Below, one piece after another: positions 5,856 to 45,230 of a stretch of DNA of 64,000 bases (position 1 is the first letter of the stretch; every line of letters starts with the position of its first letter). A program made the translations under genes and the position numbers. The DNA comes from a virus. The stretch is from positions 1-64,000 of IMG/VR virus record IMGVR_UViG_3300050011_000164; one strand, 5' to 3'. The notes beneath the pieces are model-generated. The model had not been told where the DNA came from, searched no databases, and saw nothing but the letters and a program-made list of their open reading frames with translations.

Positions 5856-6167
5856 ATGACCAAGATTAGCAAGCGGAAGACGCGACTGAGCTTCGAGACG
5901 GATGCCGAGATGCGGGGGTGGGGCAGCATCACTGTGGATAAGGAGAAGAAGAAAACGCGACGTGTCCCAGTGACTCGGGCGATCATCGTGGATGTAGACA
6001 ACGCATTCCATGGCACCGTGCGACTGAAGGGCACCCGCCAAACCTTTGACTTCTCGTGGGAGGGATTGTTCCTGTGGGCCGTGGAGCAGAAGGTCATGAA
6101 GGAGCGTGCGGAGAAGAAGCGGCTGCGTGACGCTAAGAAGAAGGGACGCTTAGTCCACGTCCGCTAG
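5856..6167 (+). CDS. small basic hypothetical protein
   Basis: TGGTATAAT at 5823, SD GGAGG, Lys/Arg-rich ORF. Confidence 0.65.
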   Translation: MTKISKRKTRLSFETDAEMRGWGSITVDKEKKKTRRVPVTRAIIVDVDNAFHGTVRLKGTRQTFDFSWEGLFLWAVEQKVMKERAEKKRLRDAKKKGRLVHVR

Positions 6168-7883
6168 ACCACGTAAGGCGTTCTCGGACTCCTCTTCCTC
6201 AGTGGGAAAGGAGTCTGGATCGCCGAACGGTACGAACGCTTTGACCGATTTATCCCCACGATCATACGCCGCTCCTACGCGGTGAGTCCCGTCTATCACC
6301 GTGTTGTGATGGTCGAGCACGATAGGCGGGGCAGGGGTGTCCAACAGAGAATAGTTTTCGACCAGTTCTTCGGACGTTTCCCACGGGGCGTCGATCTGAT
6401 CCAGCGGCACTTCCTTCAGTACGAACTCTTTGTACTGCGTGATGCGGCCATCATCTTCGTAGCCCTCATGCATCTCGCGAGCATACTCCAACACCGACCA
6501 CGAATCCACTCGTTGTCCGACAGGCAGGTTCCCGATGTATTCACTCGCCATCTTACCTTCTATCAACTGAATTTGGCTCGGTGAGAATGGGATGTAGGCT
6601 TCAATCTGTGGCATGTTGGGAGCATCACTCCCGACCACGATCAGTCCGTCGTACCCCTTTTCAATCTGTTCTTGTCGCCACTTCGCATCCCTGACGTATT
6701 TCTCTTCCGCCTCAAACCCACCTTCCATCGCGTTGAGAACCAGCGGGCTGTTGAAGGTCACGTAGGCTACGGTGACCTCGCCGAATTCTGCGGCGTATTC
6801 CCTGTTGTTCGTGAAGTAGGTAGGGACTTTAGTGAGATCGGTGTCTCCTCCGTGGTAGAGCTTGTACCGCTTTTTACTCTCTTGCCATACGGCGGCGTTC
6901 TTTTGGAGTAGGGGGTTGCTCGCTGCCACGTAGCTTCTACTTGGCTGTGCGTTGGGCGGGGAAGCTTCCTTCGCGTTGCAGGTGTTTATCACAAACCATT
7001 CGGACTGCATACCCGAATAGTTGCTTTCATCTGGGTGCGTTCGATTACGCCAGAGAACGATATCCTCAAGAGCGATCCCCTGAATTTTGCCTACGGTCTG
7101 CCACACGATGCCGCGATGTCCACCAGAGAACCCCTTGGCGGTGTCGTAAGCCGCCGACCAAGATAGCAGGTCCCGAAGGTGTGGCTCCCACTTGGCGGGC
7201 TCGCGATCATCACCCATGCGAATCTCTTCCCCACGATAGAGACACTTGCGGGTAGTCGGCGGCACGAACGGTGTGAGCGATTTGACCAACTCAACCACCC
7301 GACCAGATGCCGCTGGGTTGTCCTCAAAGGCGTCGGCACACTGCACATATTGACCGAAGTAGCCGTAAAGCGCGTCGTCCATGGCGATAGTGTAGCAAAC
7401 TTTGTCGTACTTGCTTCGAGGTTTGTCGGCGGCAAATTTGATCTGGCAATGATATAAACCACCTCTCGCTTTGTCGATTTGGATGCTGTGCCCACGTCCA
7501 TCCCAGTACCGTTCCCACTTCTTCATGTCGCTTTTGTTGAGCAGACCTTCGTCCTTCCATGAGTCTGAGGCCGTGCAATGGAGTGTAACCGTAGCTCCCG
7601 CTCCAACAATTGGAATGTTATCTTCATCCGAATTGTAAATTTGTTGCGGCTCGTCATCGATAGGCTTAGGCTTACCAACAAGTTGTTCAATCTTCTTGCC
7701 CGAGTTTTTGAACAAGGTGATAAGGCCCGGGTGAAATTGGTCTGGGTTCTCGGCTATCATCCGGTGTATTTCGTCGAGAGTGAACCATTCGAGGCTAGTG
7801 GTTTCCCAACCATGACCCTTTTCGGGATGGAGTGAAACCTCTTGAGGAACGACACCCAGAAAATTGAAATACTTAAACGCCAC
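6150..7883 (-). CDS. downstream half of split polyvalent protein: NUDIX C-terminal part + two ADP-ribosyltransferase-fold domains + ParB/Srx domain
   Basis: FKYFNFLGVV...WETTSLEWF (NUDIX C-term); LYRGE..LSWS..QSEW; LYHGG..YFT..YA..GYDGLI; PPIVL..VIDGTHR. GTG start with GAGG SD inside the 3' end of the HNH gene. Confidence 0.75.
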   Translation of the reverse strand: MAFKYFNFLGVVPQEVSLHPEKGHGWETTSLEWFTLDEIHRMIAENPDQFHPGLITLFKNSGKKIEQLVGKPKPIDDEPQQIYNSDEDNIPIVGAGATVTLHCTASDSWKDEGLLNKSDMKKWERYWDGRGHSIQIDKARGGLYHCQIKFAADKPRSKYDKVCYTIAMDDALYGYFGQYVQCADAFEDNPAASGRVVELVKSLTPFVPPTTRKCLYRGEEIRMGDDREPAKWEPHLRDLLSWSAAYDTAKGFSGGHRGIVWQTVGKIQGIALEDIVLWRNRTHPDESNYSGMQSEWFVINTCNAKEASPPNAQPSRSYVAASNPLLQKNAAVWQESKKRYKLYHGGDTDLTKVPTYFTNNREYAAEFGEVTVAYVTFNSPLVLNAMEGGFEAEEKYVRDAKWRQEQIEKGYDGLIVVGSDAPNMPQIEAYIPFSPSQIQLIEGKMASEYIGNLPVGQRVDSWSVLEYAREMHEGYEDDGRITQYKEFVLKEVPLDQIDAPWETSEELVENYSLLDTPAPPIVLDHHNTVIDGTHRVGAAYDRGDKSVKAFVPFGDPDSFPTEEEESENALRGLADVD

Positions 7884-8622
7884 AAGCAGCCTCTTTCAAA
7901 TTTTGGAATTCATACAGCCTTTTCACCCAAGCTAACCATTCCCCGATTGACATGGTGTTCTTAGATCGGTTACAGAATTTACAAGCGGTTACGCAGTTGC
8001 TCGGAATGTATCCAATAGCATTGTCTGATCTGTCAATGCCGTTGTAGTAAAAGTCCGTTGGGTGCTGATACCAGACAGCGGCTCTTTTGATGTATTGGTC
8101 AGGCCATAGCGTTGATGGGGCTTCCCCACAATAATGGCAGTTATCGACAATCAGTTTGGAAAATTCTTCAAAGGACAGCTCGAACTTGTGTTCTCTATTT
8201 CTCGCGGCATTACGGTAGTTGTTGTAAATGCTCTTACGAGCCCGTTGGTGGTCGGGTTTAACAAAAGATGCACTCATCATTTCAAAGCTCTTACAACCAC
8301 AAGATTTGCTGATTCCTTCCATAAGGGATTGCGTCCTAACAACTCGTTCCACCCCACAAACACAACGGCAAAGCCAGCCGTGCGGTCTTTTATACTCTTT
8401 AACCGTCCAATAGCCGAATGGCATTCCCGCCAATTCGTTTTTCAGATGGTCTCGTTTGCCCACTACCACGGGGCAACTCTGATACGCACCGCTACAAATC
8501 AACCGACCGTTACTTTGTTGATACTTAGCGGGGTTCCCGCATCCAAAGAAACACAATTCAGAACCGCTGTACGGTAACGGTTTGGTGTTTTTCTTGCTTT
8601 TTCTCACATATTTTCTACTCAT
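7873..8622 (-). mobile_element. free-standing HNH (His-Me finger) homing endonuclease inserted into the NUDIX coding region
   Basis: WLCRCVCG...SKSCGC N-terminal module; CHYCG...NGIDRSDNAIGY..SNCVTACKFCNRSK. More AT-rich than its flanks. Confidence 0.85.
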
Positions 8623-8626
8623 ACAA

Positions 8627-8663
8627 CTCCTATTAAAATCTCTCTAATAGAAGGTGTCGTAGT
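8627..8663 (-). promoter_or_regulatory. promoter-like motif ACTACG-ACAC-CTT-CTAT-TAG overlapping an 11-bp hairpin that sequesters the HNH SD (AGGAG)
   Basis: CTTCTATTAGA-GAGAT-TTTAATAGGAG pairs fully with two G-U pairs; ATG follows 4 nt later. Confidence 0.65.
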
Positions 8664-8668
8664 CGATT

Positions 8669-11600
8669 TTATGCTGTAAAGACAAACGCTGGGTGTAGCG
8701 TAATACCGCCGCGATACCCAGTTTCTTCGCCTAACTCTTCTTTGGCACTTTCTTGCGGGGTCATTCCCTTTTTAACGGCTCCCCCGATGGTTCCGAAACA
8801 ATTCCCTCGGTCAACATCGGGCGATCTCCACGCAAGTCCTATCCTACCCGTTGTTGGACAAATGAGGAGTATCCCTGATGCTGCGTTGCCCTCACCTGAC
8901 CAAAATCCCTCCTCACCAAACCCTTCGGCGGCAAACTTATCATGCTCAATGCACCCACCACAAGAACAGGCCGCACACTTCGACATAGCATCTTTGAGTG
9001 CCGCTTGCTTGAGAAACACGGCTATCTTCGCGGGCATTTTCTTCAGACCGTTAGCTTCCTTGAAAGACGCCCCTTTAACTTGAGGGTTGTCCATAAACTC
9101 TCCCGTGTTTTTCTCCACCTCGCGAGCCTTGTCGTCCCAAATGGTGATCATTCCGGGGTCTTTCTCGTTCGTGGAATCCAAGGCTACCCCGATGTATTTC
9201 TTGGTGTAGGCTCGAATCAATCGCTGAAGCTGGTCACGATTCTCCCCGTCCGCTAAACGAGCGGTGAATACCTTGACAGTGTGTCCTTCGGCTATCGCTT
9301 TCTTGATCTTCTCCACCATCGCGAGAATAGGAGGTCCGATAGCCAAGGGAACAAATGGTTGCATGTCGTAGGCGATAGTCCCGTCGAGGTCTACGCCAAT
9401 CCATGGAAGGTACTCGGGTGCAGCGGTGTCCTTTGTACTACCTTCCTTCAACTGCTTGGGATCAATATCCAATGGGAATATTTCGACATCATTAGCCGTG
9501 AAGGTAACATCAGGAATTTTCTTCCAGTTATATCCACCGCCAGTCTCATAGAGAGAATGCGGGATGTCAATTCCCCAAGCCTCGTCGTCATCGTACACAA
9601 GAAGCCACGAGTGATCGTCTCCTTCCTGACCGCCCTCGGTGACCTGACAATCAATGGCGTTGCGGGCAATTACTTCGGCGATAGCATTAGCGATCTCAGC
9701 ACAAATGCCGCCCGCCCCCAGTACCTCATCCACGCCCTGTTCATCCTGTTCCCATTCGTCATAGACCTTTTGAGCAGTCTCGGCAAAGCGACCTTTCAAC
9801 AGTATGAGTTGCGACTTCAAATAACTCGTCGCTTGTTTTGACGCGATAGCCGCCGTCTTGCCCTCGCCCCATACTTGATCGATAGCACGCCATAGGTCAC
9901 CGAGAGAACCTTTACCCGATTCGTTGCCTAAATCCCACACAACTTCCGAGCCCTTGCAGATAGTGCCGAGTGCGCGACGTTGAGCGGGGGTAGGTTCATT
10001 CTTCGCCTCTACAACCCAGCCATCATAATCACCGTATATGCGTACCGCTCCCGTCTCGTGAAGTAAGCGACCTACTTGGGTAACTCCGACTTTCTTTGGG
10101 TCTTCGCCAAAAGCGACACAAGCGATCTGCTCGTGATAGGCGCTCGTGGAAACCATACCATCTTTCCAAATAAATCGAGGATCGGGCATCGCTTCATAAG
10201 GATGTTCCGCAGGGTAGGATTTACGGGCAACCTGCTCGGGCTTGCTTTTAGCCGCCGTCTTGACTACCCGCCCGTCGTTGTAGTAGCTGATTTTGGTGAT
10301 CGCCGACCGTGGGATATCGCCCTCGATGCGACGGTACATGTCGCCTTCCTCGAAATGTTCGGGGTCGGGCTCGCTCTTGCTGTAGTCCCAGATGAACTCG
10401 ATCACGGCGAACTGTTCGCTGTCCGTGGTACTCATGCCATATTCTTTTGCCGCGTACTCAGCGATGGCACACCAAACGTAAGGCTTCTTGGTGTCGAGCG
10501 AATCGCTGCCAGCCTTCAGACCTTCCTTGTCAATCTGTTCCGCCGCTTCCCACGATGTGCCGTGGTAGAAAACCTGAGGAGCATCTTCGTGGGCTGATGC
10601 GGCCACGCCCTTAGCCTTGGGTTGAACTTTGCGAGCATCCGTCACTTCGTACTTGCTGCCGAACTTGGTGTTCCACTGGCTGAAGAAGTCTGGCGGGATG
10701 GTGCCCCAATGCAAGATCATTTGAGCGGGAGTCTGCCGATCCCGAATTTCTACGATAGCGAGGATGTGGTTCGACCCGCTGAAGCCAATTGGCTCGTTGA
10801 CGCGGGAGGTGTTCATGTTGTATAGCTGATTCTTCGAGGACTCAGTGGACGGGCGGGCGAGGAGTCGCAATGTACGGGTAACCTTCTCTGCCGCTTCGCG
10901 AAACGCTGCTTCTCCTTCGGCTCCATCAGGGAGCACGGTGTTCATATCGGGGCGTTGCTTTTCCTTCGGGGTGCCGTAGAAGACCTGATCCCATGACCGA
11001 ATGTAAGCGTAGTTGTCCTTGACGTGACCTGCCGCACGAGTGACGGCTGCGAGCCATACGCTGGGTAGAAGCTTCTCAAGTTCCTTTTTCAGTTCGGGGT
11101 GGAACGACATCCCACGTTCTGCAAATTTACTCCCCCACTGTGTAAGGCACTTACCGATGTAATCATCCCGCATTCCTTCTATTTCTTGTTGCCATGTCTC
11201 GGCAGCACCTTCTTGTGTAGCCGCTAAGTAGTAGCAAAGAACGTGGAAGGTGTTGTCGCTCAAATGCTTGATTGGAGCGCCCAAGACTCCTGTGACGTTA
11301 TCTTCGTCAAGATACATGGTGTTGGGCTGAAGCTCCATGATGACGACCAAACAGCCGCCGCGAGCCTTCTTGTCTTCAGTGTTTGGGGCTCCCGTCGCCG
11401 TCATGAGGTTCTGCGTCACATAGGTGCCGCCGTAAGACTGACGACTGGGTGCGGTAATGCTCGCGTCAGGATCGTCTGCCCAGACCTTTTCCGTGCCTTC
11501 GGGAACCAACCCCTGACTCATGATGCTTTGCAGGTTCTTGAGGCTGGTGCCGTGATACCAGATGGACTTCGGGGCGGCGGTCACACCAATAGCTTTGGAT

Positions 11601-14600
11601 TCCTGAGGAATCAATATAGTGTATTTGGGGAACTTCTTCTTGAACATATCCACTACGGCATTGGCAATAAACCCATCTTCTAGAGGGTTAGATGGCGCAT
11701 TCTCCAAAGTTACAGTCTTCTCATCCCTGTCAATTTCAGCGTAACCTCGATCCACCTCATCGAATTTCCGACCACTAGCCATCTCCTTGCCCATGGTCTT
11801 TGCTACCAAGTCCGCGTGAGGACCTATTTTTCCTATCCTTGAAAACGCACCATAATCAGGGTGATAAATCCATTTTTCGTATCTGTCTTCCACGTCTCTC
11901 CAACTGCCGCGCTTCTCCCTCGACGATGGGGCATTCTCGTTAATGAAGCGGTGCATCAGGATGATGGCACTTTCTTGCGCGGAAGTCGCCTGACTAAGCG
12001 TGTAATCGTTTTGCACGCCCAATTCGCTGAATGTATTCTGGTACGTTGCATAGAAGTCCTCGGCTTCATGAAGGTTATTCTCGGCCTCTCCAAGCATCTC
12101 ACCCAGATACTTCCTGTCCTTCCGATTCGACTTACGTAGATATTCCTTGCAGTGGTATAGCAAGCTTGCTATCGTCTTCTGTTGCCGCTCGACTACTGCT
12201 TCCGCAACGATGGGGAGCGCATCTACCCGCGCTCTGCTGGGGTGATACAAAATCGCATCGTGCTCAGTCAACAATGATTCATGCGTCGGAGCCGCAGTCT
12301 TAACTACGGGCGCTTTATCCCTAGCGTACTTCGTAAACTGCTTGGGCTCCCAATAGAGCTTCCAATGTTTCTCGTACTTGCCCGTCAATTCGCAGATCGA
12401 CTCCCCGGGTTTCTCTACCTTAAGAACGGTGGTCTCGGCAACAGGCATCTTGTCGAAAGTAAAGTAGACCTTTTCATTTGGCAGAACGGCGGGACGACCC
12501 TTGAACGCCCAGAACTCCAGATTGTGTGCGGGCGGTTCGTCCCAGAAGTGACCACGGGAATCTTTTGGAACTTCGATGAAGAAAGCAAACTTGGCGAAAT
12601 CTGACGCCGCCTTGACGATATCTGATGATCCCCTGACGATAGGTTCAACGGTCTGGGACTGGATAGCATCGGGATTAAATAGGGCGACTGACACATGCTT
12701 GCCACGTTTGTTGCCGCTGTACACATCGTTGCAGATGACGCCATCCACTCCGTTGTTCTTCAGGAGTTCGACGTTAGCGGGCCTGCCTTCGAGTACACCG
12801 TAATCTGTGTAGTGCTTTACGAATTCCTCATCGCTCATTGGCGGATACCCGTTGCTGCCTCGCCAGACATCTACGTTCTTTTTGATCTGCTGAACCAGTG
12901 GCTCGTTTAGATCGCGGAGGTCAATGATCTTAGCGTCGGGCTTGAGGATGACCTTGAACATGCGGCTCTGCCCCTTTTGATAGTGCTGATTGGCGTAAGA
13001 CTCCGCATCCTGCTTCTCTGCCAACCAGATGATTCCATGGCCCAGCCCAGATAGCTCGGTGAAGTCGCCTTCTTTGTTGGTGCCGTGGTAGAAAACTCGG
13101 TCTTTTGGCGTCAGGGCGGCGGTCTTAGCATAGGGGTCAACCTTGCTCACAAACTGTACAGCGTTCCCGCTGTAGGTACGCCACTCACCCAATGCCGACT
13201 CGCGGGTGCCCATCGCACCAGCTATGGGCTTGAATTGGAGAATTGCAATCTGCTCGATTGGTGTGCTGGCGAGTGCTGGGATGTTCGTACTGAAGAACAG
13301 GGGATTCATCGGCCCGCCCGCGTTCTCACGTGCGGCTGCCCACGTCTTGTAAAAATCAAAGGTGCGGTCCTGAAGCTCGGCATCGGATAGCGGCTGCATC
13401 CACGTTACCCAACGCCCCATACCATCCCCACCCATCCAACCTTCACCGATGGGTTCCGCATTGCCCATCTGATCCTGCCGTTTACCCATGGATACTTGCT
13501 CAATCTTCTTACCATCGAGTAACGCCTGAATATGGTCGGGCCAAGGTTGTCCCACGTTCCACTTTTTATCGCCTGTGTAATATGCCCCGCCCCACGTGAT
13601 CGCTTCGTATATCCACGGACGACTGGCGGTCGTGCCCTTTGTCGCCATGTCGATCATCTGCTGTAGGGTGAATTCACCGCTTGCAACCTTACGACCCTCT
13701 ACCATAGCAAGGTAGATGCTCTGTGCGGTTGCCAGATCGTCAGTGAAGCTGACGGCTTTGTCGGTGCCGCCGCCGAGTCCCGTACCCTGATCCATCGACA
13801 ATTGGTAGCGGGTCTTCAAACCTCCTGACATAACTTGGTCGGCTGCGGTTGTCACGTGGTACAGATTGGCTGGCAGGGGCTTGAACGTTCCCGGCAGATA
13901 AAGCCCACGAGCCTTGGCTTCTTCGGGAGCGAGTTTTCCTTCTGATACGGCAGCGAGAGCAAGCTGTTCCCAATGATTGTTCTTCTTGTAACGTTCCGTC
14001 GTCGCTTCCTGCGGCTCTTCTTCAAACATCTGAGTCTCGGGATTGATTGGTGGGTATGGAGAATATTCGTTTCTCGCCATCTCCCATGGTTCCGCAGCCG
14101 TTTTCTCTGAAGCTTGCTTACCAGTGCCGTAACGCTCTGCCATCCAGCGGACAGCCTCGCCATCTGGAGCTTTCGAGAACGCACTACCGTCGTTGGCGGC
14201 ATCGACAATCTTCGGATCACGTTCCATCAATTCTTCCCACGTGCCGTCTTCCATCAGGTAACGCACGTGGTGGTGGAACGGCTCATGGAATGCCACGATC
14301 TGGTTGAGAGGAACGTCGCCGTTTGCAATGACGTGATGGTAACCCTTTGCCCACTCTTCAGGACTATCTTCTTTACGAGGGTATTCTGCCCGATGACTAA
14401 TCTGCTCAGGAGATAAGTAGAGTTCAACAAATAAGTGAGTGTCGCCCGGGGGACGAGTAGATGCCCATATACCTGCGGACGGCCCTGAGCCGCTCCCGTC
14501 ATCGCCGCGAGCAAACGACGCAAGCAATCCTCGCTTCTTGATGCTCTCGAAGCTTTCTCTGCTCTTCGTGTAGTGATACAGCCGAACTGTTCCCGCAGGA

Positions 14601-17600
14601 ATCTGAGTCTCACCCGGCTCAAGCGGAATCTCACTGGCGGCGAGCTTGGCGACTGCACGCTGAGCTTTGGGCTTCTTCGGGGCTTTTTTCGGCAGCAATG
14701 ACGCAGCGTTCGCAATCGCGTAATCAACAACTTCCGACAAACCCCCCTCGAATAACGGATTACCATCTTGATCCTGAATAGACCATGTGCTGTATCCGTC
14801 ATTGAAAATTGGAATGATGTTCTTGGCATCCTTACCCCAGAAAATGATCTGCTCGAAATCATCCCCCGTATGGTACGTCTCGATGCCGTTTGCTTGGAAT
14901 AGGACGCAGTGCCGACCGTAGTCTTTCCCGAGACCTTCGAGGTTACGGTGGTGGGCATCAATGGCAAAATTATACCCGCCCATCTTCTTTGCCTCATCCT
15001 TGAAGTACGTTGTCAGAGCGAGCGTCTCTACCCGATCCATACCGAACTTAAATCCGTTCTTGGCAATCTCTTCGGGGTGATCGGTGAAGTGCACTAACCA
15101 AGCATTCTTGACATCACGCCGATAATCTACGGTCAGGAACGTTGGGGCATTAGCTGGGTCATCCTGCATCGCCTGACTACCATACTGTTCGAGGAAATCG
15201 CTCAGTATGTCATCGGAGACCATACTGAAATCGTCCATGTACTCGTCTTCATCGAGGTTTTCCAAAAATTCGGGATGCTCGTTCTCTACGAATTGTCTCC
15301 AGTAACCGCTGAATATACGAGCTAACTCTTCGCCCATATCACGGCGGCTCGGGGTAAGGTAGCTCCGCAGGTTAGCAAGATCGGCTGCCGCCGCATTCTT
15401 CTCTATCTCCACGAAATCAGGTCCAGCTTCGGGCGTCTCGGGAGCAACCTGTTTCTCCAACGCCTTGCCGCGATAACGGGACGCGGGGATGAGTCCTAGC
15501 TTCTTGCAGATTGGGCAATGGCGATTCAGCCCGCCCTGATTCTTCATTCGACGCTCGAAGTCTCTATCCACGTTATCCCAAATACGGGCAACGGTGAACG
15601 AAATACCTTTCGCATGAATGGCTTCAATCAGCTTAACTCCTGAGGTTGCTTTGTAGTGTTGGTCGATACGTTCCTGTGCATTCTCACTCCATCCCATGTA
15701 ATGGCGAGCGTGGAATGGTTTCTTAGCATCCTCGCGGCTGCTGGGAACCTCTTCCTTCGGGTCGATATCGAAGTGCAGGAGATAAACCTGACCCTTAACC
15801 GACGCGGTGACCGTTCGCACAGGGGGTTGCGACCATCCTGATTTCTTATCGTACTGGATTCCCTCAAGCTCAAATTGTGTACCCTCCAGCAAACGTACTT
15901 CTTTTTCGTTTTCGCCCAATGAAGGAAACATGTTGGAGTAGATGGTGCCTTCCCAGTCAACGTTATCCTCATTGATTACGCCGTGCAACGTCACACTCGG
16001 CCCACCCGTACCCCAGTGGCACTCTGCGGCACCCTCCTCCCACGACCAGTAGATGCCCACGCCTTGGTACTTTATTGCCTGCAATCCTTGCTGGAGTTTC
16101 GCTTGTGGAGTGTCGGGGAACAGGTGTTGCTGTTGTGCGTCCTTAGCCTTTGGTAGGGAGATGCAGCGGAACACGTCCATCGGAAACTGCCAGCCCTGAT
16201 ACTCAGCTACCAGATTCTCGTAACGCTCACGGAAATCTCCGACTGCGCGTTTACGCAGTATATTTTGGTACGACTTGACCTCGGCTGGGTTGCTGGGGTC
16301 TTCCAGACCGTAGCCGTATGTTTCCGCCTCATCGACATCGTACTCGCTGAGCAGCTTACCAATGCCGCCCATCTTCTTCAGCCACGCATTGAACGACTGG
16401 AAGCTTGCTGCCGTCTTGGTCGAGGCTGTCGTTGCTTCCTCGGGATACTTCGCTTCCCAGTCTCTCTTTTGCCGACGCTGTAGCTCCTGCTTATGGTACT
16501 TGTTGGCAGTGTAGGGATCAATCTCAGGCTCGATGATGCCTTTCTGTTTGACCTGAGTGGGCTTGAACACGATGTAGTCGTCCGCCAGACTCTCGTGATG
16601 GAGTTCGTAAACGTTTTTGATGATCGCCCCATCATAGCCATTCTCGTAGGCGTACTTAGCGAGGATGTCGGTGTCAACCGTATCCATTCCCTCAGCGACC
16701 CAACCCTTCAATTTCTTGGGAGTAGGAATGGAAGAGTACCCAGACCCCTTGGCGTCCACAATAAGGGGTTTATTCATCGTTAGGTAGCACTCGTGCACGA
16801 AGGTGCCGTATGCCTGTGCAACGAGCGGATCGGAACTGAAGAATTTTCCAATCTTGTATTGGTCGATCTGGATTTCATCAGACCACTCACGGTGGGTGCC
16901 GTGATAAACTGGACCGTACTGCTTGGCGACCTTGCCTGCTTCCTTCTTCTCCTCTGGGAACAAAGGCGTTTTCTCTAACTTCGGGAACGATTTTCCGCCC
17001 ATGCCGTGGGCAACATCTGCAATCATGTCTACCTCGTCAGGTAGCATCTGGGTTGACCCGCTCGCCTTTTTGTACCCAGCGAGTGAATTCAGGGTGCTGG
17101 TACCGCCTTGTACAAACCAACTTGCGAGATCGCTGCGGGCATGGACGATGTTTAGGATGCGGTCAACAGCTTGGAGCTTCTGCTCAGCCGTTTGAGCCTG
17201 TTCAAGGCGGATAGCACTATCGACAAGCTTATCTAGGGCATAATCAGTTAGCCGCCACTGTCCGCTGTCGTCGTCGAAAAAGGTGTAATCAACATCCTCA
17301 ATGTTGGGAAGGTCCTTAACGTACTCCTCGCCCATGACTGATTCAACAAACTGTTCGGATGCTTGGTCAGTGTGTCCGCAAAGGATTGTGTTGGTATGAA
17401 TTTTCCAGATATTTTCGAGTATCCGCCACGTAATGTCGTCCATGCCTTTTTCATCGCGTACTATACCTGTCTTGGCATAGTCGTTCCAGATTTTCTTTAG
17501 ACGAGCAGCGGGCACCACATCCCACTTCTGACGATACGAAGGGTCGTTCCGATGTGAGTCAAATTCCTGAATAACGGATTCTGCAATGGAATCGAGCCCC

Positions 17601-20600
17601 GTGAAATAAGACTCCGCATCGGCGGTCTTCAATAAAGACCCAAACTTCGGTGTTGGAATGACCTTGATTGCGTTCGCGGGGATGTCGCCAAGGTAAGCAA
17701 CTTGACAACTGTATTTGAGGCTTACTTCCCACGGCACAAGTGCCCAATTGTCGCCGTACTCTTCTTTTACCCACGGTTCGATGTCGCCACTGTAACGCTC
17801 CCAAACATCGGGGAAATCGTAGTCATCTGGACGGAGCAAGTCTTGGCGCAGGTTGCTGACCGTGATCTGAAGGATGATCCAGTTCTCGGGCTTCACCCCT
17901 TTGTGCCCCGCGTAGTTGGCTGCTGTCGTTTGATCGCAGGCGAGATACGTAGCTTTCTGCCACTCGATGTTGCTTTCGTTGAATTCAACACGCAACCCAC
18001 CATTCAAGATGGCGTCGAGATTCTTTTTGTCGGTGCCGTGATACAGGTATTGCGGAATCGGGAAGGGTTCCTCGGCAGCCCGAGCCGTCTTCTCTTCATC
18101 TGGGAACAGCGGGTTCTCTTCTAGCTGTGGGAAGTCCTGTCCGCCAATGCCTTTCTGTCCACGCATAGGTAGGTTCTTGGAATCGTCGCCGTAAGCCACG
18201 ACCGTTTTCTGGATTGGCTTCCTGTAGCCATCCCCATATTCGATACCCACTAATCGAAGCTCGGCACCTGCCACAACTGTGATCTCATTCTCCTCCTCGT
18301 TGAGCATGTTCGCGAGAAGAGTTGCATCCCAATCCACGTCGGTTGAGCGCAATACCTTGGCTTTCAGGATTACAGTTTGAGGATTCTTCGGGTGCGGACC
18401 ACCTTGATCCCACATTGACCCCGAACCAAAGTACGCATCGGCACTATTTTCAACCCACGTCCAATAGACACCCGCGTGCTCCAAGTTCGGCTGCGTGCCA
18501 GTCTCGACTTGAACCGCACGATAGATGGTGATGGGGAAATCCACCGTGCTGAAGTGAGCGACGTTCTCGTCATAGCGGTACCCAGCCTCGTTGAAATCGT
18601 CAGGCTGGTACATCGGGTTCGCATCACACCAGTTGTCAAACGGCATGGGCTTGAAATTCTGAGCCCCGGTCTTGAACAAGGCGGGCGAAAGAGTTTCGAG
18701 TGACGGTAGGTCTTCTACACCCTTTACACACTCGGGAATGTCGGCGTAGGCATTCGTCTCCTCGCCCATCTCTGGATTCTCATACTGCGTATCGCTCATC
18801 GGCGGGGTTTTGTGTGATGCCGTGATTTCCCCCTGCTCAGGATCAAACTTCCCCGTGTTACCCGTAGCCGACTTGATCTGATTAGCTTCAAACACAGCGT
18901 AGTTCACCGTACCGAGTTCGATCAGGATCACGCCATCGTGTCCCATTTGCTTGATGTAGTTTATAAAGCCCGGGAGTTCCAACACCACCCAATTGCCCTC
19001 TCGAATCTGCTTCATGAATGCCTGTCGGTCGTAGTTGGAATAATCCTCGGGTACGAGTTCCTCGGGCGTCTTATTTGTGGCGTCTGCAACCAGACGCTCG
19101 TACTCATAGTCTCCTTCGCTCCAATTTGGCGAGACTTCCTCCAGCCAATCCAAGGCGGTGCTCTGACCTTCGTCGGTGCGGAAGTCAAACGGGTCTTCGA
19201 TCTTCAAGTACACGGGCATGACGTTTCCGCCCGGGTCCTTATTTGGGGACGAATAGAGACTGGCAAACTTCGGGTCCGTACTGAAGAATGCAAGATAGTC
19301 GCCGCTATACTCCTTCTCGAACTTCTGAATATCGGATGAAGGCGTGCCGTGGTACACAATAAGAGGGTTACCATGCTTGTCCACGACTTTCGAGGCACCG
19401 AACCACGCCTTAAATTCAGGCGTTTCGGTAAACGGCTTCGTTGGGTTTTTGACATTTTTGGTCGGCTTATAGGCTGCGGACTTAAGAGGTTTGCCAAAAG
19501 GCACTCGAACCTGACCCCCGCCCTTCTGTGATAAGGTGATGTCGTTCACTTCAAATGTCACACCCTCAACCCAATCCAACCCATCGTACTTGGCGGCAGC
19601 TTCGGGCTTGACATAAGCAAGCGTCACGTGCGGCTTGTAGTCGAAGTCATCCTTGCGGGTGCTCATGGCCTTGTTGACCATATCGTGCAGAACTTCAAGC
19701 TCAGGAGCGTGCGCTTCAACTACAATGGGAGCCTGAGCATCAGAGCTTTCACTCACCTCGAATACATGTGTTTTGCCCAGCGTAACGGTGAACGGCTTCT
19801 GATCGGCGACGACTTGGCTGAGTAAGGCTGAATCAGCTTTGATGCCGTACTTGATCGTGATGTGAGCCTCATCTTCCCGCCCATCCTCGCCAAGCTCCTC
19901 ATCAGGAATCTGTGTAGCGGCTTCGTACATCTTAGCCGCAGCATCAGGCGACAAGTTGATGTGAGCCGTCGCGTTCTTGTGTGGACCTGAGTTGGCTTCC
20001 TTTGCACCCTCGATAGCATCGAGTTCGTCCTGTATGGGGGAGCAAGCGAATTTCGCCATCGGAGCATTAGCCCAGAGGTCTTGGAGCTTCTGTTCCTGTT
20101 CTGGAGTACGTGGGAGATTCCATCCCGTGTACTGCTTAATTCGACCTCGCCCTTTGGTGAATACGGAGTCCGTTGTCTTAACCAATTTGAATTCGCCCGA
20201 AGCCCAGTCAATCCCATCGAGGTACGCCATAGCCTGACGGCTAAGCCCCACCGCCCATTGCCAGCCCAAACGTTGCTTGTGCCGCCCGTACACGTAGTTG
20301 TTGAGCAGGACAAAGATTTCCTTGCCCTGATCGTCCACTACGGTGTCCTTATCGGATTTCTCTGTCACAAAGTCCGCACCGTATTTTGCATCGAAACGCT
20401 TGGCGACTTCTTTCCACTCCTTGCCGTGTCCATCTGGCCCAAAAATGTTTTGATACCGTTTGTAGGTTTCGTAACCGATTTCCAGAAGTTTTGGCTTGGC
20501 AATGAGCAAGGCGACTTCATGATGACACAGTTCATGGGCAATAACGCGACGGAGGGTCTCCTCATGCCCCAGAACCTTCTTCTGAATTTCCAATGTGGTA

Positions 20601-21067
20601 TTGTCGTCGCCCCAAGTCTCATTGGCTTTCTTGCCCCAAAGCCAACGGCATTGCCCCAACGTTCTATTGGTCTGGTTTATGATCTTGACTTCGGGCTGGG
20701 GGAGTCCTGCGGTGAGGACGCCCATCATCTCGGTGACAATGTTCTTCATCTGACCGATATCGGCGGCGGTTTTGGCAGCAGCAGATTTCTGTGTCGGGGT
20801 AAGAGTTACGAACTTCCCATCGGCAGGATCGCCAATAACGGTGCTCATTCCATCCGTATTATAGTCGTCGAAGATCGCCCAATGCTCATCCCACCAATCG
20901 GCTTCGGGGGTGCCTGCTTCACGTCGGCAGCCGAGGGTGTGGGTTTCGACAATGAAATCCCCGATTCTCTGGCTGATGCCACAGACTTGAGGATCGGTCT
21001 CATCTAACAGGTTTTGAGCCTGAAGAAGAACGTCCTTTGTATCAGGCTTTTGGAGAAGTGGGTTCAT
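8669..21067 (-). CDS. 4132-aa polyvalent protein: SprT metalloprotease, 2H phosphoesterase, ~11 ART-fold domains, GIY-YIG, papain-like C-H-D domain, HAD phosphatase, NUDIX N-terminal part
   Basis: HELCH (~20530); HITI/HVTL (~19860/19625); YHGT/YHxT or YR..YW[ST]W..ExE motifs at ~19350, 18520, 18040, 16900, 16170, 15090, 14570, 13855, 13085, 11555, 10560; VYLLHF..HYMG..R..QH (~15780); GICAEIA..HSW..IDI (~9700); DLDGT (~9385); Nudix box GG..KKGMTPQESAKEELGEETG (~8750). Confidence 0.85.
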   Translation of the reverse strand: MNPLLQKPDTKDVLLQAQNLLDETDPQVCGISQRIGDFIVETHTLGCRREAGTPEADWWDEHWAIFDDYNTDGMSTVIGDPADGKFVTLTPTQKSAAAKTAADIGQMKNIVTEMMGVLTAGLPQPEVKIINQTNRTLGQCRWLWGKKANETWGDDNTTLEIQKKVLGHEETLRRVIAHELCHHEVALLIAKPKLLEIGYETYKRYQNIFGPDGHGKEWKEVAKRFDAKYGADFVTEKSDKDTVVDDQGKEIFVLLNNYVYGRHKQRLGWQWAVGLSRQAMAYLDGIDWASGEFKLVKTTDSVFTKGRGRIKQYTGWNLPRTPEQEQKLQDLWANAPMAKFACSPIQDELDAIEGAKEANSGPHKNATAHINLSPDAAAKMYEAATQIPDEELGEDGREDEAHITIKYGIKADSALLSQVVADQKPFTVTLGKTHVFEVSESSDAQAPIVVEAHAPELEVLHDMVNKAMSTRKDDFDYKPHVTLAYVKPEAAAKYDGLDWVEGVTFEVNDITLSQKGGGQVRVPFGKPLKSAAYKPTKNVKNPTKPFTETPEFKAWFGASKVVDKHGNPLIVYHGTPSSDIQKFEKEYSGDYLAFFSTDPKFASLYSSPNKDPGGNVMPVYLKIEDPFDFRTDEGQSTALDWLEEVSPNWSEGDYEYERLVADATNKTPEELVPEDYSNYDRQAFMKQIREGNWVVLELPGFINYIKQMGHDGVILIELGTVNYAVFEANQIKSATGNTGKFDPEQGEITASHKTPPMSDTQYENPEMGEETNAYADIPECVKGVEDLPSLETLSPALFKTGAQNFKPMPFDNWCDANPMYQPDDFNEAGYRYDENVAHFSTVDFPITIYRAVQVETGTQPNLEHAGVYWTWVENSADAYFGSGSMWDQGGPHPKNPQTVILKAKVLRSTDVDWDATLLANMLNEEENEITVVAGAELRLVGIEYGDGYRKPIQKTVVAYGDDSKNLPMRGQKGIGGQDFPQLEENPLFPDEEKTARAAEEPFPIPQYLYHGTDKKNLDAILNGGLRVEFNESNIEWQKATYLACDQTTAANYAGHKGVKPENWIILQITVSNLRQDLLRPDDYDFPDVWERYSGDIEPWVKEEYGDNWALVPWEVSLKYSCQVAYLGDIPANAIKVIPTPKFGSLLKTADAESYFTGLDSIAESVIQEFDSHRNDPSYRQKWDVVPAARLKKIWNDYAKTGIVRDEKGMDDITWRILENIWKIHTNTILCGHTDQASEQFVESVMGEEYVKDLPNIEDVDYTFFDDDSGQWRLTDYALDKLVDSAIRLEQAQTAEQKLQAVDRILNIVHARSDLASWFVQGGTSTLNSLAGYKKASGSTQMLPDEVDMIADVAHGMGGKSFPKLEKTPLFPEEKKEAGKVAKQYGPVYHGTHREWSDEIQIDQYKIGKFFSSDPLVAQAYGTFVHECYLTMNKPLIVDAKGSGYSSIPTPKKLKGWVAEGMDTVDTDILAKYAYENGYDGAIIKNVYELHHESLADDYIVFKPTQVKQKGIIEPEIDPYTANKYHKQELQRRQKRDWEAKYPEEATTASTKTAASFQSFNAWLKKMGGIGKLLSEYDVDEAETYGYGLEDPSNPAEVKSYQNILRKRAVGDFRERYENLVAEYQGWQFPMDVFRCISLPKAKDAQQQHLFPDTPQAKLQQGLQAIKYQGVGIYWSWEEGAAECHWGTGGPSVTLHGVINEDNVDWEGTIYSNMFPSLGENEKEVRLLEGTQFELEGIQYDKKSGWSQPPVRTVTASVKGQVYLLHFDIDPKEEVPSSREDAKKPFHARHYMGWSENAQERIDQHYKATSGVKLIEAIHAKGISFTVARIWDNVDRDFERRMKNQGGLNRHCPICKKLGLIPASRYRGKALEKQVAPETPEAGPDFVEIEKNAAAADLANLRSYLTPSRRDMGEELARIFSGYWRQFVENEHPEFLENLDEDEYMDDFSMVSDDILSDFLEQYGSQAMQDDPANAPTFLTVDYRRDVKNAWLVHFTDHPEEIAKNGFKFGMDRVETLALTTYFKDEAKKMGGYNFAIDAHHRNLEGLGKDYGRHCVLFQANGIETYHTGDDFEQIIFWGKDAKNIIPIFNDGYSTWSIQDQDGNPLFEGGLSEVVDYAIANAASLLPKKAPKKPKAQRAVAKLAASEIPLEPGETQIPAGTVRLYHYTKSRESFESIKKRGLLASFARGDDGSGSGPSAGIWASTRPPGDTHLFVELYLSPEQISHRAEYPRKEDSPEEWAKGYHHVIANGDVPLNQIVAFHEPFHHHVRYLMEDGTWEELMERDPKIVDAANDGSAFSKAPDGEAVRWMAERYGTGKQASEKTAAEPWEMARNEYSPYPPINPETQMFEEEPQEATTERYKKNNHWEQLALAAVSEGKLAPEEAKARGLYLPGTFKPLPANLYHVTTAADQVMSGGLKTRYQLSMDQGTGLGGGTDKAVSFTDDLATAQSIYLAMVEGRKVASGEFTLQQMIDMATKGTTASRPWIYEAITWGGAYYTGDKKWNVGQPWPDHIQALLDGKKIEQVSMGKRQDQMGNAEPIGEGWMGGDGMGRWVTWMQPLSDAELQDRTFDFYKTWAAARENAGGPMNPLFFSTNIPALASTPIEQIAILQFKPIAGAMGTRESALGEWRTYSGNAVQFVSKVDPYAKTAALTPKDRVFYHGTNKEGDFTELSGLGHGIIWLAEKQDAESYANQHYQKGQSRMFKVILKPDAKIIDLRDLNEPLVQQIKKNVDVWRGSNGYPPMSDEEFVKHYTDYGVLEGRPANVELLKNNGVDGVICNDVYSGNKRGKHVSVALFNPDAIQSQTVEPIVRGSSDIVKAASDFAKFAFFIEVPKDSRGHFWDEPPAHNLEFWAFKGRPAVLPNEKVYFTFDKMPVAETTVLKVEKPGESICELTGKYEKHWKLYWEPKQFTKYARDKAPVVKTAAPTHESLLTEHDAILYHPSRARVDALPIVAEAVVERQQKTIASLLYHCKEYLRKSNRKDRKYLGEMLGEAENNLHEAEDFYATYQNTFSELGVQNDYTLSQATSAQESAIILMHRFINENAPSSREKRGSWRDVEDRYEKWIYHPDYGAFSRIGKIGPHADLVAKTMGKEMASGRKFDEVDRGYAEIDRDEKTVTLENAPSNPLEDGFIANAVVDMFKKKFPKYTILIPQESKAIGVTAAPKSIWYHGTSLKNLQSIMSQGLVPEGTEKVWADDPDASITAPSRQSYGGTYVTQNLMTATGAPNTEDKKARGGCLVVIMELQPNTMYLDEDNVTGVLGAPIKHLSDNTFHVLCYYLAATQEGAAETWQQEIEGMRDDYIGKCLTQWGSKFAERGMSFHPELKKELEKLLPSVWLAAVTRAAGHVKDNYAYIRSWDQVFYGTPKEKQRPDMNTVLPDGAEGEAAFREAAEKVTRTLRLLARPSTESSKNQLYNMNTSRVNEPIGFSGSNHILAIVEIRDRQTPAQMILHWGTIPPDFFSQWNTKFGSKYEVTDARKVQPKAKGVAASAHEDAPQVFYHGTSWEAAEQIDKEGLKAGSDSLDTKKPYVWCAIAEYAAKEYGMSTTDSEQFAVIEFIWDYSKSEPDPEHFEEGDMYRRIEGDIPRSAITKISYYNDGRVVKTAAKSKPEQVARKSYPAEHPYEAMPDPRFIWKDGMVSTSAYHEQIACVAFGEDPKKVGVTQVGRLLHETGAVRIYGDYDGWVVEAKNEPTPAQRRALGTICKGSEVVWDLGNESGKGSLGDLWRAIDQVWGEGKTAAIASKQATSYLKSQLILLKGRFAETAQKVYDEWEQDEQGVDEVLGAGGICAEIANAIAEVIARNAIDCQVTEGGQEGDDHSWLLVYDDDEAWGIDIPHSLYETGGGYNWKKIPDVTFTANDVEIFPLDIDPKQLKEGSTKDTAAPEYLPWIGVDLDGTIAYDMQPFVPLAIGPPILAMVEKIKKAIAEGHTVKVFTARLADGENRDQLQRLIRAYTKKYIGVALDSTNEKDPGMITIWDDKAREVEKNTGEFMDNPQVKGASFKEANGLKKMPAKIAVFLKQAALKDAMSKCAACSCGGCIEHDKFAAEGFGEEGFWSGEGNAASGILLICPTTGRIGLAWRSPDVDRGNCFGTIGGAVKKGMTPQESAKEELGEETGYRGGITLHPAFVFTA

Positions 21068-45155: not shown

Positions 45156-45230
45156 TGGAACCCGCGACGGGACTCACACCCGCAACTCCTTCGTTTAGAA
45201 TGAAGTGCTCTGCAATTGAGCTACGCAGGT
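45156..45230 (-). tRNA. tRNA with CUA anticodon (amber suppressor), encoded CCA
   Basis: ACCTGCG-TA-GCTC-AATTGCA-GAGC-A-CTTCA-TTCTAAA-CGAAG-GAGTT-GCGGG-TGTGAGT-CCCGT-CGCGGGT-T-CCA. 75-nt cloverleaf with an A31-C39 mismatch and non-canonical D and T loops. Confidence 0.8.

What the first reader, a model, noticed from the sequence alone, without database searches (positions are those of the whole stretch)
7840..8920. NUDIX domain split mid-fold by a homing endonuclease with no intron scaffold
Seen: the 4132-aa ORF ends just after a Nudix box (...EETGYRGGITLHPAFVFTA-TAA). The 577-aa ORF begins (V)AFKYFNFLGVV...WETTSLEWF, the expected continuation. The ~790-nt insert is almost entirely the HNH ORF, with 46 non-coding nt upstream and an overlap downstream. 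A new GAGG SD plus GTG start for the second half sits inside the HNH 3' end. Established precedent: mobE splitting nrdA in phage Aeh1, where the two halves reassemble as proteins. Inference: a naturally split NUDIX that reassembles in trans, or an unrecognised splicing or bypassing event (joining GCA-T to CG-TTT would restore the frame).
Basis: partly seen in the sequence, partly recalled or inferred. Interest (0 to 1): 0.8.

Follow-up and report, generated by a model that had tools for sequence, protein, structure and literature searches.

The report
Homing endonuclease splits phage Nudix gene
A selfish nuclease gene has inserted into the middle of a small enzyme domain (Nudix) in a giant phage protein gene, so the domain is now encoded as two separately translated pieces; this kind of "gene in pieces" is already known, here in a new host gene.

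Summary
A 4132-aa polyvalent-protein ORF (8669-21067) stops with TAA 14 residues after its Nudix box. A 46-nt leader and a 249-aa PacI-like HNH endonuclease ORF (7873-8622) follow. A 577-aa ORF (6150-7883) then starts at a GTG with its own Shine-Dalgarno inside the HNH 3' end.

The two ends match uninterrupted Nudix modules residue for residue, with no gap or extra residue (Tunturi_5 gp273 and eight distinct IMG/VR contigs). Independent metagenomes carry the same junctions.

Rfam finds no intron in this copy or in a second one. That second phage contig (L013) has a 51%-identical HEG at the same site, with the same TAA, leader and SD-GTG restart. There the C-half is a 97-aa ORF with nothing else attached, kept in seven variants. 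The two split modules are not sisters in a tree (AU p 0.019).

Best reading: a free-standing homing endonuclease cassette that carries stop and restart signals.

It is a new member of a known kind (Aeh1 nrdA/mobE, T4 39/mobA/60, intein-less fractured genes). This scan has found HEG-split genes before on other DNA.

The parts
8669..21067 (-). N-part ORF, 4132 aa: a polyvalent (multi-effector) phage protein that ends inside its last module, the Nudix domain.
   Evidence: ORF list. Pfam finds ART-PolyVal (8.5e-45), PARP, 2H/LigT-like, Tpt1, SprT-like and NUDIX at residues 4064-4120.
8672..8926 (-). Nudix N-half, about 85 aa, with the Nudix box ...GGAVKKGMTPQESAKEELGEETGY... and the following strand ITLHPAFVFTA.
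   Evidence: Pfam NUDIX positions 5-60 of 134. 73% identical to residues 1-84 of the intact L005 module. Keeps E64, E67 and E68 and 6 further conserved positions.
8669..8671 (-). TAA stop directly after the GCA (Ala) codon; this is the 5' edge of the inserted cassette.
   Evidence: Sequence. L013 has the same TAA after GCT.
8623..8668 (-). 46-nt leader of the endonuclease gene. A hairpin (8614-8666) pairs the AGGAG Shine-Dalgarno (8631-8627).
   Evidence: RNA fold -15.4 kcal/mol, z -3.95, 0 of 200 shuffles as good. The leader is homologous in L013.
7873..8622 (-). Free-standing homing endonuclease gene, 249 aa: Cys-rich N-terminal part plus a PacI-like HNH (beta-beta-alpha-metal) nuclease.
   Evidence: PHROG HNH / endonuclease VII families, E 2.5e-15. 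The profile of 6 relatives hits PacI 3ldy at E 3.6e-6. All 43 columns invariant among the 6 sequences of A3 (of which it is one) are by definition kept. GC is 44-45% against 52-57% in the flanks. Single copy in the record.
7881..7895 (-). Restart signal for the C-part: AAGAGG (7895-7890), a 6-nt spacer, then GTG (7883-7881). It lies inside the 3' end of the HNH ORF. A TGA in the C-part frame lies four codons upstream (five triplets before the GTG).
   Evidence: Sequence. L013 has AAGGAG, 7 nt, then GTG at the equivalent place.
7665..7883 (-). Nudix C-half, about 73 aa: (V/M)AFKYFNFLGVV...GWETTSLEWF...FHPGLITLFKNSGKKIEQLVGKPK.
   Evidence: 58% identical to residues 87-158 of the intact L005 module with no gap and 48% to gp273 209-281. 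Keeps E112, W118 and H136 and 4 of 5 near-invariant positions (F101V).
6150..7883 (-). C-part ORF, 577 aa: Nudix C-half followed by further polyvalent-protein modules. It is the ancestral 3' end of the giant gene.
   Evidence: ORF list. Residues 151-322 are 96% identical to a module of the L005 polyvalent ORF. The DNA just downstream of the gene end is syntenic with L005.

Best explanation
A mobile cassette of about 790 nt has inserted into the hairpin loop between two beta-strands of the Nudix module that closes a roughly 4700-aa polyvalent phage protein gene.

The cassette consists of:
- a TAA stop;
- a 46-nt leader whose hairpin masks the endonuclease's ribosome-binding site;
- a PacI-like HNH homing endonuclease gene;
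- inside that gene's last codons, a Shine-Dalgarno and a GTG.

The gene is therefore expressed as three products from one message: a 4132-aa protein ending in the Nudix N-half, the endonuclease, and a 577-aa protein beginning with the Nudix C-half. There is no RNA or protein splicing.

Shown: the anatomy, the exact collinearity, the absence of intron or intein sequence, the recurrence of the same cassette at the same site in another phage, and its patchy distribution among related Nudix modules.

Inferred: (a) the endonuclease cuts intact alleles at this site and spreads by homing; (b) the two Nudix halves, neither of which is a complete fold, associate after translation to rebuild the domain, which would also tether the 577-aa part to the giant protein.
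For: 1. Collinearity. The halves abut on intact modules with no residue missing or added. The loop has 4 residues, as in 8 of the 9 intact alleles; the ninth has 5.

2. Intact alleles exist in relatives. Of 11 distinct phage sequences carrying this Nudix subfamily, 9 are uninterrupted and 2 are split. One of the intact ones, L005, is a syntenic relative of the window phage, 74-91% identical in DNA in the neighbouring genes.

3. A second cassette. In L013 the HEG is 51% identical (120 of 235, E 8e-87) and sits at the same codon. It has the same TAA, a homologous leader, and SD plus GTG. It overlaps the downstream half by 28 nt, against 11 nt in the window.

4. Mobility. In a tree of 26 modules the window groups with P0172 (98/98). 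L013 groups with intact L160 and L164 (99/97). The AU test rejects a window+L013 clade (p 0.019), and starred branches force at least 3 changes of the split state.

5. No intron. Rfam E-value searches give only chance hits, E 4.3 in the window and E 1.1 and 2.9 in L013.

6. Both halves are maintained.
- The window keeps 6 of 6 invariant and 10 of 11 near-invariant family positions; L013 keeps 17 of 17.
- L013's C-half is a 97-aa ORF with no other module.
- It occurs in 7 sequence variants on contigs up to 339 kb.
- 5 of 68 domain columns vary, against 8 of 28 tail columns (Fisher p 0.017).
- For the pair L013 and P0221 alone the counts are 0 of 69 against 6 of 28 (p 0.0004).

7. Features of the class. 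An RBS-masking hairpin in the HEG leader and an overlap between the HEG 3' end and the downstream half are both described for free-standing HEGs in fractured genes (Dassa 2009, section 14).

8. The junctions are real. Contigs of three other runs from different studies bridge them.
Against: - No RNA or protein data exist.
- The C-half alone gives no Pfam hit.
- The window's C-half has one near-invariant position changed (F101V).
- In the window the 577-aa ORF carries other modules. Its start signals could therefore be kept for their sake even if the Nudix were dead.
- One C-half variant (P0258) has three changes inside the domain.
- No HEG-less allele of this same phage was seen in the four runs laid.
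- Endonuclease activity and its target are untested.
- The nuclease has Arg where the first His of the canonical HNH motif would stand, as PacI does.
- The tree rests on 162 columns, and co-conversion of flanks during homing could distort it.
Confidence: 0.75

Rival explanations
1. The insertion killed the Nudix module. The giant protein simply ends in a non-functional stub, and the 577-aa ORF is kept only for its downstream modules. The halves do not reassemble.
For: Reassembly is not demonstrated. The window's C-half has F101V at a near-invariant position. The 577-aa ORF carries other modules that could by themselves explain the preserved SD-GTG. The giant ORF's NUDIX score is below Pfam's cut-off when the whole protein is scored (19.1 against 21.1).
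Against: In L013 the C-half is a 97-aa ORF with nothing else attached. It still keeps SD, GTG and 17 of 17 conserved positions (with its N-half). It persists in 7 variants, with fewer changes in the domain than in the tail. The window's halves keep 16 of 17 conserved positions, including all three Nudix-box glutamates.
Confidence: 0.15
2. The insert is a cryptic self-splicing (group I-like) intron whose ribozyme core overlaps the HNH ORF. The mRNA is spliced and one continuous protein is made.
For: The whole insert folds slightly better than shuffles (z -2.05, 1 of 20 shuffles as good). Intron-borne HNH genes are known in phages.
Against: No Rfam intron family matches at E up to 10 in the window copy or in L013. 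Only 46 nt lie outside the ORF. The join would give a 3-residue loop, shorter than in any of the 9 intact alleles. A stop at the 5' edge and an SD-GTG at the 3' edge are conserved in two copies whose HEGs are only 51% identical, which splicing would not require.
Confidence: 0.05
3. Ribosomes bypass the insert (a gene-60-like hop) or read through the stop, giving one polypeptide.
For: The take-off codon GCA is followed by a stop, and a GCG Ala codon follows the GTG. HEG cassettes can carry bypass elements, as in T4 mobA / gene 60 (recalled; listing).
Against: The gap would be about 790 nt and contains a translated ORF; the known bypass spans 50 nt (listing). A GCA-to-GCG hop would delete two loop residues. 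Read-through of TAA meets another TAA 11 codons later. The only tRNA found in the window reads TAG, not TAA.
Confidence: 0.01
4. It is a fractured gene of the split-intein type: the halves are ligated by protein trans-splicing.
For: A free-standing HEG between two gene halves is the layout of Dassa's fractured genes.
Against: There is no room for intein halves. The N-part ends and the C-part begins exactly where the intact modules continue, with 0 extra residues.
Confidence: 0.005

Closest known systems
Phage Aeh1 nrdA-a / mobE / nrdA-b (Friedrich 2007, known to me only through citations; Crona 2011, PMC3045599, abstract and outline seen; review PMC2988022, passages seen)
   Same: A free-standing HNH homing endonuclease gene is inserted inside a conserved coding region. 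There is no intron and no intein. Two separately translated halves result, and the HEG 3' end overlaps the downstream half.
   Different: Aeh1's halves carry cassette-derived tails that are essential for activity. Here no tail exists: 4 loop residues replace 4. The host gene is a roughly 135-aa single-domain fold inside a polyvalent virion-type protein, not a large nucleotide-metabolism enzyme. Function of the split form has not been shown.
T4 gene 39 / mobA / gene 60 and the split gene 43 of Aeromonas phage 25 (review PMC2988022, passages)
   Same: HEG-associated splitting of one phage gene into two polypeptides that must assemble.
   Different: These are different nuclease subfamilies and host genes. 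The T4 cassette also carries a 50-nt bypass element (recalled; listing). Nothing comparable is seen here.
Fractured genes of Dassa et al. 2009 (PMC2677866; abstract, section 14), including their intein-less sbcD case
   Same: A phage or metagenomic locus with a free-standing HEG between gene halves, a hairpin in the HEG 5' UTR, and a 6-69 bp overlap of the HEG end with the downstream half.
   Different: Most of those loci have split inteins that re-ligate the protein; this one has none. The enzymes there act in DNA synthesis and repair.
Intron-encoded HNH endonucleases (I-HmuI, I-TevIII)
   Same: An HNH-type nuclease interrupting a phage gene at a conserved site.
   Different: Those sit inside group I introns that splice. 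No intron is detectable here.
Restriction endonuclease PacI (PDB 3ldy)
   Same: The nuclease half of the HEG family aligns to PacI (E 3.6e-6) over ...GVDR.D..GY...N...C.ICNR.K..., with Arg where the first His of the canonical HNH motif would stand.
   Different: PacI is a stand-alone restriction enzyme. The HEG adds a Cys-rich N-terminal region and sits in a mobile cassette. That PacI uses a tyrosine to start cleavage is recalled, not taken from any call.

Membership tests
Free-standing homing endonuclease gene (HNH / beta-beta-alpha-metal, PacI-like) | Nuclease domain with the family's conserved metal and zinc ligands. | tested here: met
   The window copy is one of the 6 sequences of A3, which share 43 invariant columns including C162/C165, D197 R198 D200 N201, N209 and C214/C217/N218/K221. 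The profile hits PacI at E 3.6e-6. PHROG HNH families reach E 2.5e-15. Pfam HNH itself is only E 0.2.
Free-standing homing endonuclease gene (HNH / beta-beta-alpha-metal, PacI-like) | Own translation signals, not in frame with the host gene, and no flanking intron or intein. | tested here: met
   AGGAG lies 4 nt before the ATG. A TAA ends the host frame 46 nt upstream. No intron. No extra residues at the ends of the halves.
Free-standing homing endonuclease gene (HNH / beta-beta-alpha-metal, PacI-like) | Patchy presence at one site among related host genes. | tested here: met
   2 of 11 distinct modules are split at the same codon. The split rows are interleaved with intact ones in the tree, and the AU test gives p 0.019.
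Free-standing homing endonuclease gene (HNH / beta-beta-alpha-metal, PacI-like) | Cleaves the HEG-less allele and is copied into it (homing). | not testable with these tools
   Needs a cleavage assay or mixed infection.
Gene in pieces made by a HEG (Aeh1 nrdA/mobE type) | The halves are collinear with an intact homologue, and the HEG 3' end overlaps the start of the downstream half. | tested here: met
   The overlap is 11 nt in the window and 28 nt in L013. Compare the 6-69 bp overlaps in Dassa 2009.
Gene in pieces made by a HEG (Aeh1 nrdA/mobE type) | Hairpin in the HEG leader that masks its ribosome-binding site. | tested here: met
   Window: -15.4 kcal/mol, z -3.95, 0 of 200 shuffles as good. 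L013 is weaker: z -1.77, 8 of 200.
Gene in pieces made by a HEG (Aeh1 nrdA/mobE type) | The halves assemble into an active enzyme. | not testable with these tools
Only indirect evidence from conservation exists.
Group I / group II intron | Match to the ribozyme core models. | tested here: not met
   The Rfam 15 E-value search returned only SAM-II and sR9 at E 4.3 in the window, and sR17 (E 1.1) and Histone3 (E 2.9) in L013.
Group I / group II intron | Spliced RNA. | not testable with these tools
   No RNA run is listed as holding the stretch.
Split-intein fractured gene | N-intein at the end of the first half and C-intein at the start of the second. | tested here: not met
   The halves abut on intact modules with 0 extra residues.
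NUDIX hydrolase (PF00293) | Nudix box and full fold. | tested here: met
   The N-half covers profile positions 5-60 of 134. Intact relatives cover 5-125 and 7-127. The family profile aligns across the Dcp2 and MutT Nudix folds (87 PDB sequences at E up to 0.001). E64, E67 and E68 are kept. The fold here exists only as the sum of two ORFs. Catalysis is untested.
Polyvalent protein of phages (Iyer et al. 2017, PMC5512222) | Many effector domains in one polypeptide, including ART-PolyVal. | tested here: met
   ART-PolyVal at 8.5e-45, plus PARP, 2H, Tpt1, SprT-like and NUDIX. Passages of the paper were seen. Packaging into the virion is their prediction and was not tested here.

The most novel reading that the evidence does not exclude
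The split Nudix fold has become a non-covalent clasp: co-folding of its two halves is what keeps the 577-aa cargo attached to the 4132-aa polyvalent protein for packaging and delivery. In addition, this HEG family homes specifically to the Nudix hairpin codons of polyvalent genes in soil jumbo phages. By co-conversion of flanks it would drive the shuffling of neighbouring effector modules between phages. That would account for the incongruent Nudix tree and the 91%-identical module found at different positions in two phages.
Probability: 0.2. Interest if true: 0.6.

Novelty: new member of a known kind. Interest (0 to 1): 0.45.

Why it matters
The find adds a clean natural example of a small single-domain enzyme fold encoded in two genes without any splicing or added interaction tails. 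The break lies in a beta-hairpin loop. That is useful for people who design split proteins and for annotators, who would otherwise call a truncated Nudix and an orphan ORF.

It also shows that homing endonucleases target the effector genes of soil jumbo phages (polyvalent proteins), not only DNA-metabolism genes. The cassette brings its own stop and restart signals, which limits the damage it does to the host gene.

Tried and rejected
RNA evidence. The look-up of sequencing runs listed 22 runs in 19 studies and no RNA holder, so expression and splicing could not be examined.

HEG-less allele of this same phage. None of the 4 runs laid (X2, X4, X6, X8, chosen out of 22) shows a joint across the insert. 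These are contigs, so absence proves nothing.

I mapped the split site only by sequence alignment to solved Nudix chains. There it falls in a loop that carries indels.

I therefore cannot say whether those models end in a stop or at a contig edge, nor what follows them. Contig lengths are 2150, 7602 and 16747 nt for P0172, P0251 and P0188, and 1024 and 674 nt for P0183 and P0186.

Searches that found nothing:
- The search for related loci with P0002, P0001 and P0186 in viral contigs.
- Alignment A1, which was too variable to be used as a query.
- Of 80 viral loci and 60 metagenome loci holding HEG relatives, only L014 (the same place as L013) has Nudix flanks.

Fold of the whole insert: z -2.05. 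This is too weak and unspecific to count for a ribozyme.

It is rejected as unsupported, not disproved.

Suppression. The only tRNA in the window reads TAG. The stops at the junction are TAA.

In print. One search (Nudix + homing endonuclease + split gene) returned 0 papers. That is a narrow search of an open-access library only. Supplementary files were not consulted.

Rows dropped. The tree used 15 of the 150 listed family hits, chosen as short proteins and the proteins that end or begin at the site, plus 11 modules from loci. P0188, P0251 and P0252 were not in the tree.

Full report
OBSERVATION

All three ORFs lie on the minus strand.
- The 4132-aa ORF (8669-21067) ends ...EETGYRGGITLHPAFVFTA, followed by TAA at 8671-8669.
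- Forty-six non-coding bases follow (8668-8623), with AGGAG at 8631-8627.
- A 249-aa ORF runs from 8622 to 7873.
- The 577-aa ORF starts at the GTG at 7883-7881. This GTG is preceded by AAGAGG (7895-7890) and a 6-nt spacer, and by a TGA in the same frame four codons upstream (five triplets before the GTG). It is therefore the first usable start.
- The 577-aa ORF overlaps the 249-aa ORF by 11 nt.

Pfam puts the end of the giant ORF on NUDIX positions 5-60 of 134. The score is 22.4 bits against a cut-off of 21.1 when the last 343 aa are scored. It is 19.1 bits when the whole protein is scored. The 577-aa protein has no Pfam hit by itself.

THE TWO ENDS ARE ONE NUDIX DOMAIN

Two uninterrupted relatives were found first. 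One is gp273 of Tunturiibacter phage Tunturi_5 (PP885688). The other is an IMG/VR phage seen on three contigs that are identical over 8.5 kb (L003 to L005). Their Nudix modules cover Pfam positions 7-127 and 5-125 of 134 respectively.

BLASTP places the window's halves end to end on them, with no gap and no residue lost.
- On the L005 module, P0001 259-342 matches residues 1-84 (73%), and P0003 2-73 matches residues 87-158 (58%).
- On gp273, the matches are at 10-207 and 209-281.

Codon by codon, the loop between ...PA[YF]VF and F.Y.NF has 4 residues in 8 intact alleles and 5 in one. It has 4 in the window: T-A, stop, then (V/M)-A.

A profile of 28 family members aligns across the whole Nudix fold of solved chains such as Dcp2 and MutT. 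In these alignments the break falls where both query and target carry indels, that is, in a loop. From general knowledge of the Nudix fold, which I did not compute here, neither fragment would be a complete domain.

The giant ORF is a polyvalent protein in the sense of Iyer et al. 2017. It carries ART-PolyVal, PARP, 2H, Tpt1, SprT-like and NUDIX domains (passages). The L005 phage is a syntenic relative, 74-91% identical in DNA in the neighbouring genes. The DNA just beyond the end of the 577-aa ORF matches the DNA beyond the end of L005's single ORF. The two ORFs are therefore the remains of one gene.

THE INSERT IS A HOMING ENDONUCLEASE CASSETTE, NOT AN INTRON

- The 249-aa protein matches PHROG HNH / endonuclease VII families (E 2.5e-15).
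- A profile of it and five relatives hits the HNH restriction enzyme PacI (3ldy, E 3.6e-6) over the ...DR.D..GY...N...C..CN..K motif.
- Relatives are scattered singletons in phages and metagenomes: 42 phage records, all under 60% identity, and 95 proteins, the best at 58%.
- The insert has 44-45% GC against 52-57% in the flanks.
- It is single-copy in the 84.7-kb record.
- Rfam E-value searches over 2 kb find no intron family, only two chance hits at E 4.3.
- Only 46 nt lie outside the ORF. This leader folds into a hairpin that pairs the HEG's own Shine-Dalgarno (-15.4 kcal/mol, z -3.95). Dassa et al. report such hairpins for 15 of 16 free-standing HEG leaders.

The junctions are not an assembly artefact. 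Contigs from other runs and studies (peat, permafrost, soil) cover the stretch at 99% identity or more and bridge both junctions.

A SECOND COPY AND A PATCHY DISTRIBUTION

Searching 1.84 billion representatives with the intact L005 module gave 1173 relatives.

Among the 150 listed, four end within a few residues of the same site: P0172, P0183, P0186 and P0188. One, P0221, begins there. Cluster mates P0251 and P0252 end there too.

P0221 led to L013, on IMG/VR contig 3300037089_000251 (104.5 kb). Its layout is as follows.
- A 702-aa ORF ends ...LYPAFVFTA, followed by TAA.
- A homologous leader follows.
- A 253-aa HEG is 51% identical to the window's.
- AAGGAG, 7 nt and a GTG start a 97-aa ORF, MPFKYHNF..., which overlaps the HEG by 28 nt.
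- Rfam again finds no intron.

Thus the stop, the leader and the restart signal travel with the endonuclease gene.

Of 11 distinct phage sequences with this Nudix subfamily, 2 are split and 9 are intact.

In a maximum-likelihood tree of 26 modules:
- the window groups with P0172 (98/98);
- L013 groups with P0221, and then with the intact L160 and L164 (99/97);
- the AU test rejects a clade of the two split loci (p 0.019);
- well-supported branches force at least 3 changes of state.

This is what homing, or precise loss, produces. There are two caveats: the alignment has only 162 columns, and co-conversion of flanks is possible.

Other members of the HEG family sit elsewhere. Of 80 viral and 60 metagenome loci, only L014 (the same place as L013) has Nudix flanks.

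IS THE SPLIT NUDIX STILL USED?

This was not shown directly. The indirect evidence is as follows.
- The window's halves keep 6 of 6 invariant and 10 of 11 near-invariant family positions (F101V). L013's halves keep 17 of 17.
- In L013 the C-half has no other module attached, so its ORF, SD and GTG can only serve to complete the Nudix.
- That 97-aa ORF exists in 7 variants on contigs up to 339 kb.
- Across the variants, 5 of 68 domain columns vary against 8 of 28 tail columns (p 0.017).
- For L013 and P0221 alone the counts are 0 of 69 against 6 of 28 (p 0.0004).

Against this, one variant (P0258) carries three changes in the domain. In the window, the restart signal could also be kept for the sake of the downstream modules.

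MECHANISM, WITH STATUS OF EACH STEP

- Shown: the cassette anatomy, collinearity, recurrence, and absence of intron or intein.
- Inferred, likely: three translation products arise from one message. HEG translation is damped by the leader hairpin. The C-part initiates at its own SD-GTG, possibly coupled to HEG termination 8 nt downstream.
- Inferred: the nuclease cuts intact alleles in the hairpin-loop codons and is copied in by repair.
- Inferred, about 60%: the halves co-fold into an active Nudix.

I put the overall reading at 0.75. The dead-module rival is at 0.15, a cryptic intron at 0.05, and bypass and intein readings at 0.01 or less.

COMPARISON WITH WHAT IS KNOWN

The arrangement is the genes-in-pieces type of Aeh1 nrdA-a/mobE/nrdA-b, T4 39/mobA/60 and the intein-less sbcD locus of Dassa et al.. 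Interruption of phage genes by selfish elements is common enough that a pipeline exists to mend the resulting fragmented gene calls.

It differs from those cases in four ways.
- The host gene is the Nudix module of a polyvalent protein.
- A small single-domain fold is cut in a hairpin loop.
- There are no cassette-derived tails, which Aeh1's enzyme needs.
- The nuclease is PacI-like.

One literature search for a HEG-split Nudix returned nothing. This scan has reported HEG-split genes on other DNA before. I file it as a new member of a known kind, with interest 0.45.

LIMITS

- There are no RNA or protein data.
- Friedrich 2007, the T4 bypass-cassette paper and the PacI structure paper were not read and are cited from citations or recall.
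- The Tunturi virus paper (PMC11924767) was seen only as a search listing.

Noticed in passing
window 6927-7421 (-) and L005 4013-4507: A roughly 170-aa module of the 577-aa ORF is 96% identical in protein and 91% in DNA to a module at a different position in the related phage's polyvalent ORF. The Nudix modules of the same two phages are only 58-73% identical. This looks like recent exchange or shuffling of single effector modules.
   Followed up: partly
proteins P0134, P0147, P0156, P0159, P0161, P0164: Six Nudix relatives match in two stretches, with the first ending at about module position 107. This suggests an in-frame insertion at a second site of the same Nudix family.
   Followed up: no
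window 45156-45230 (-): ARAGORN calls one tRNA with anticodon CUA, labelled tRNA-Pyl, which would read the amber codon TAG. The stops at the HEG junction are TAA, so it has no bearing on the split.
   Followed up: partly
L015 (IMGVR_UViG_3300037089_000251, 72305-77877) and L162 4997-5173: The contig that carries the second split Nudix has another HEG of the same family (45% identical) about 25 kb away. It also has a weak HNH-like stretch about 1 kb downstream of the split locus.
   Followed up: no
window 8927-9419 (-), P0001 residues 94-258: A HAD-like phosphatase module directly precedes the Nudix, as it does at the N-terminus of Tunturi_5 gp273. The window has an extra Cys-rich stretch of about 51 aa between the two (CAACSCGGC...) that gp273 lacks.
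   Followed up: no
L129 (Ga0187876_1087102, 997-1176): A peat metagenome contig ends in a stretch 65% identical to the last 60 residues of the window's HEG. The contig stops 10 nt later, so what it is inserted into is unknown.
   Followed up: no
L010 / L157 (IMGVR_UViG_3300032770_000001, 455.7 kb) and P0256 (contig of 339 kb): This Nudix subfamily and the split form occur on very large contigs. The window record itself is estimated to be 26% complete at 84.7 kb. These are probably jumbo phages of peat and tundra soils. The cultured relative Tunturi_5 infects an acidobacterium.
   Followed up: no
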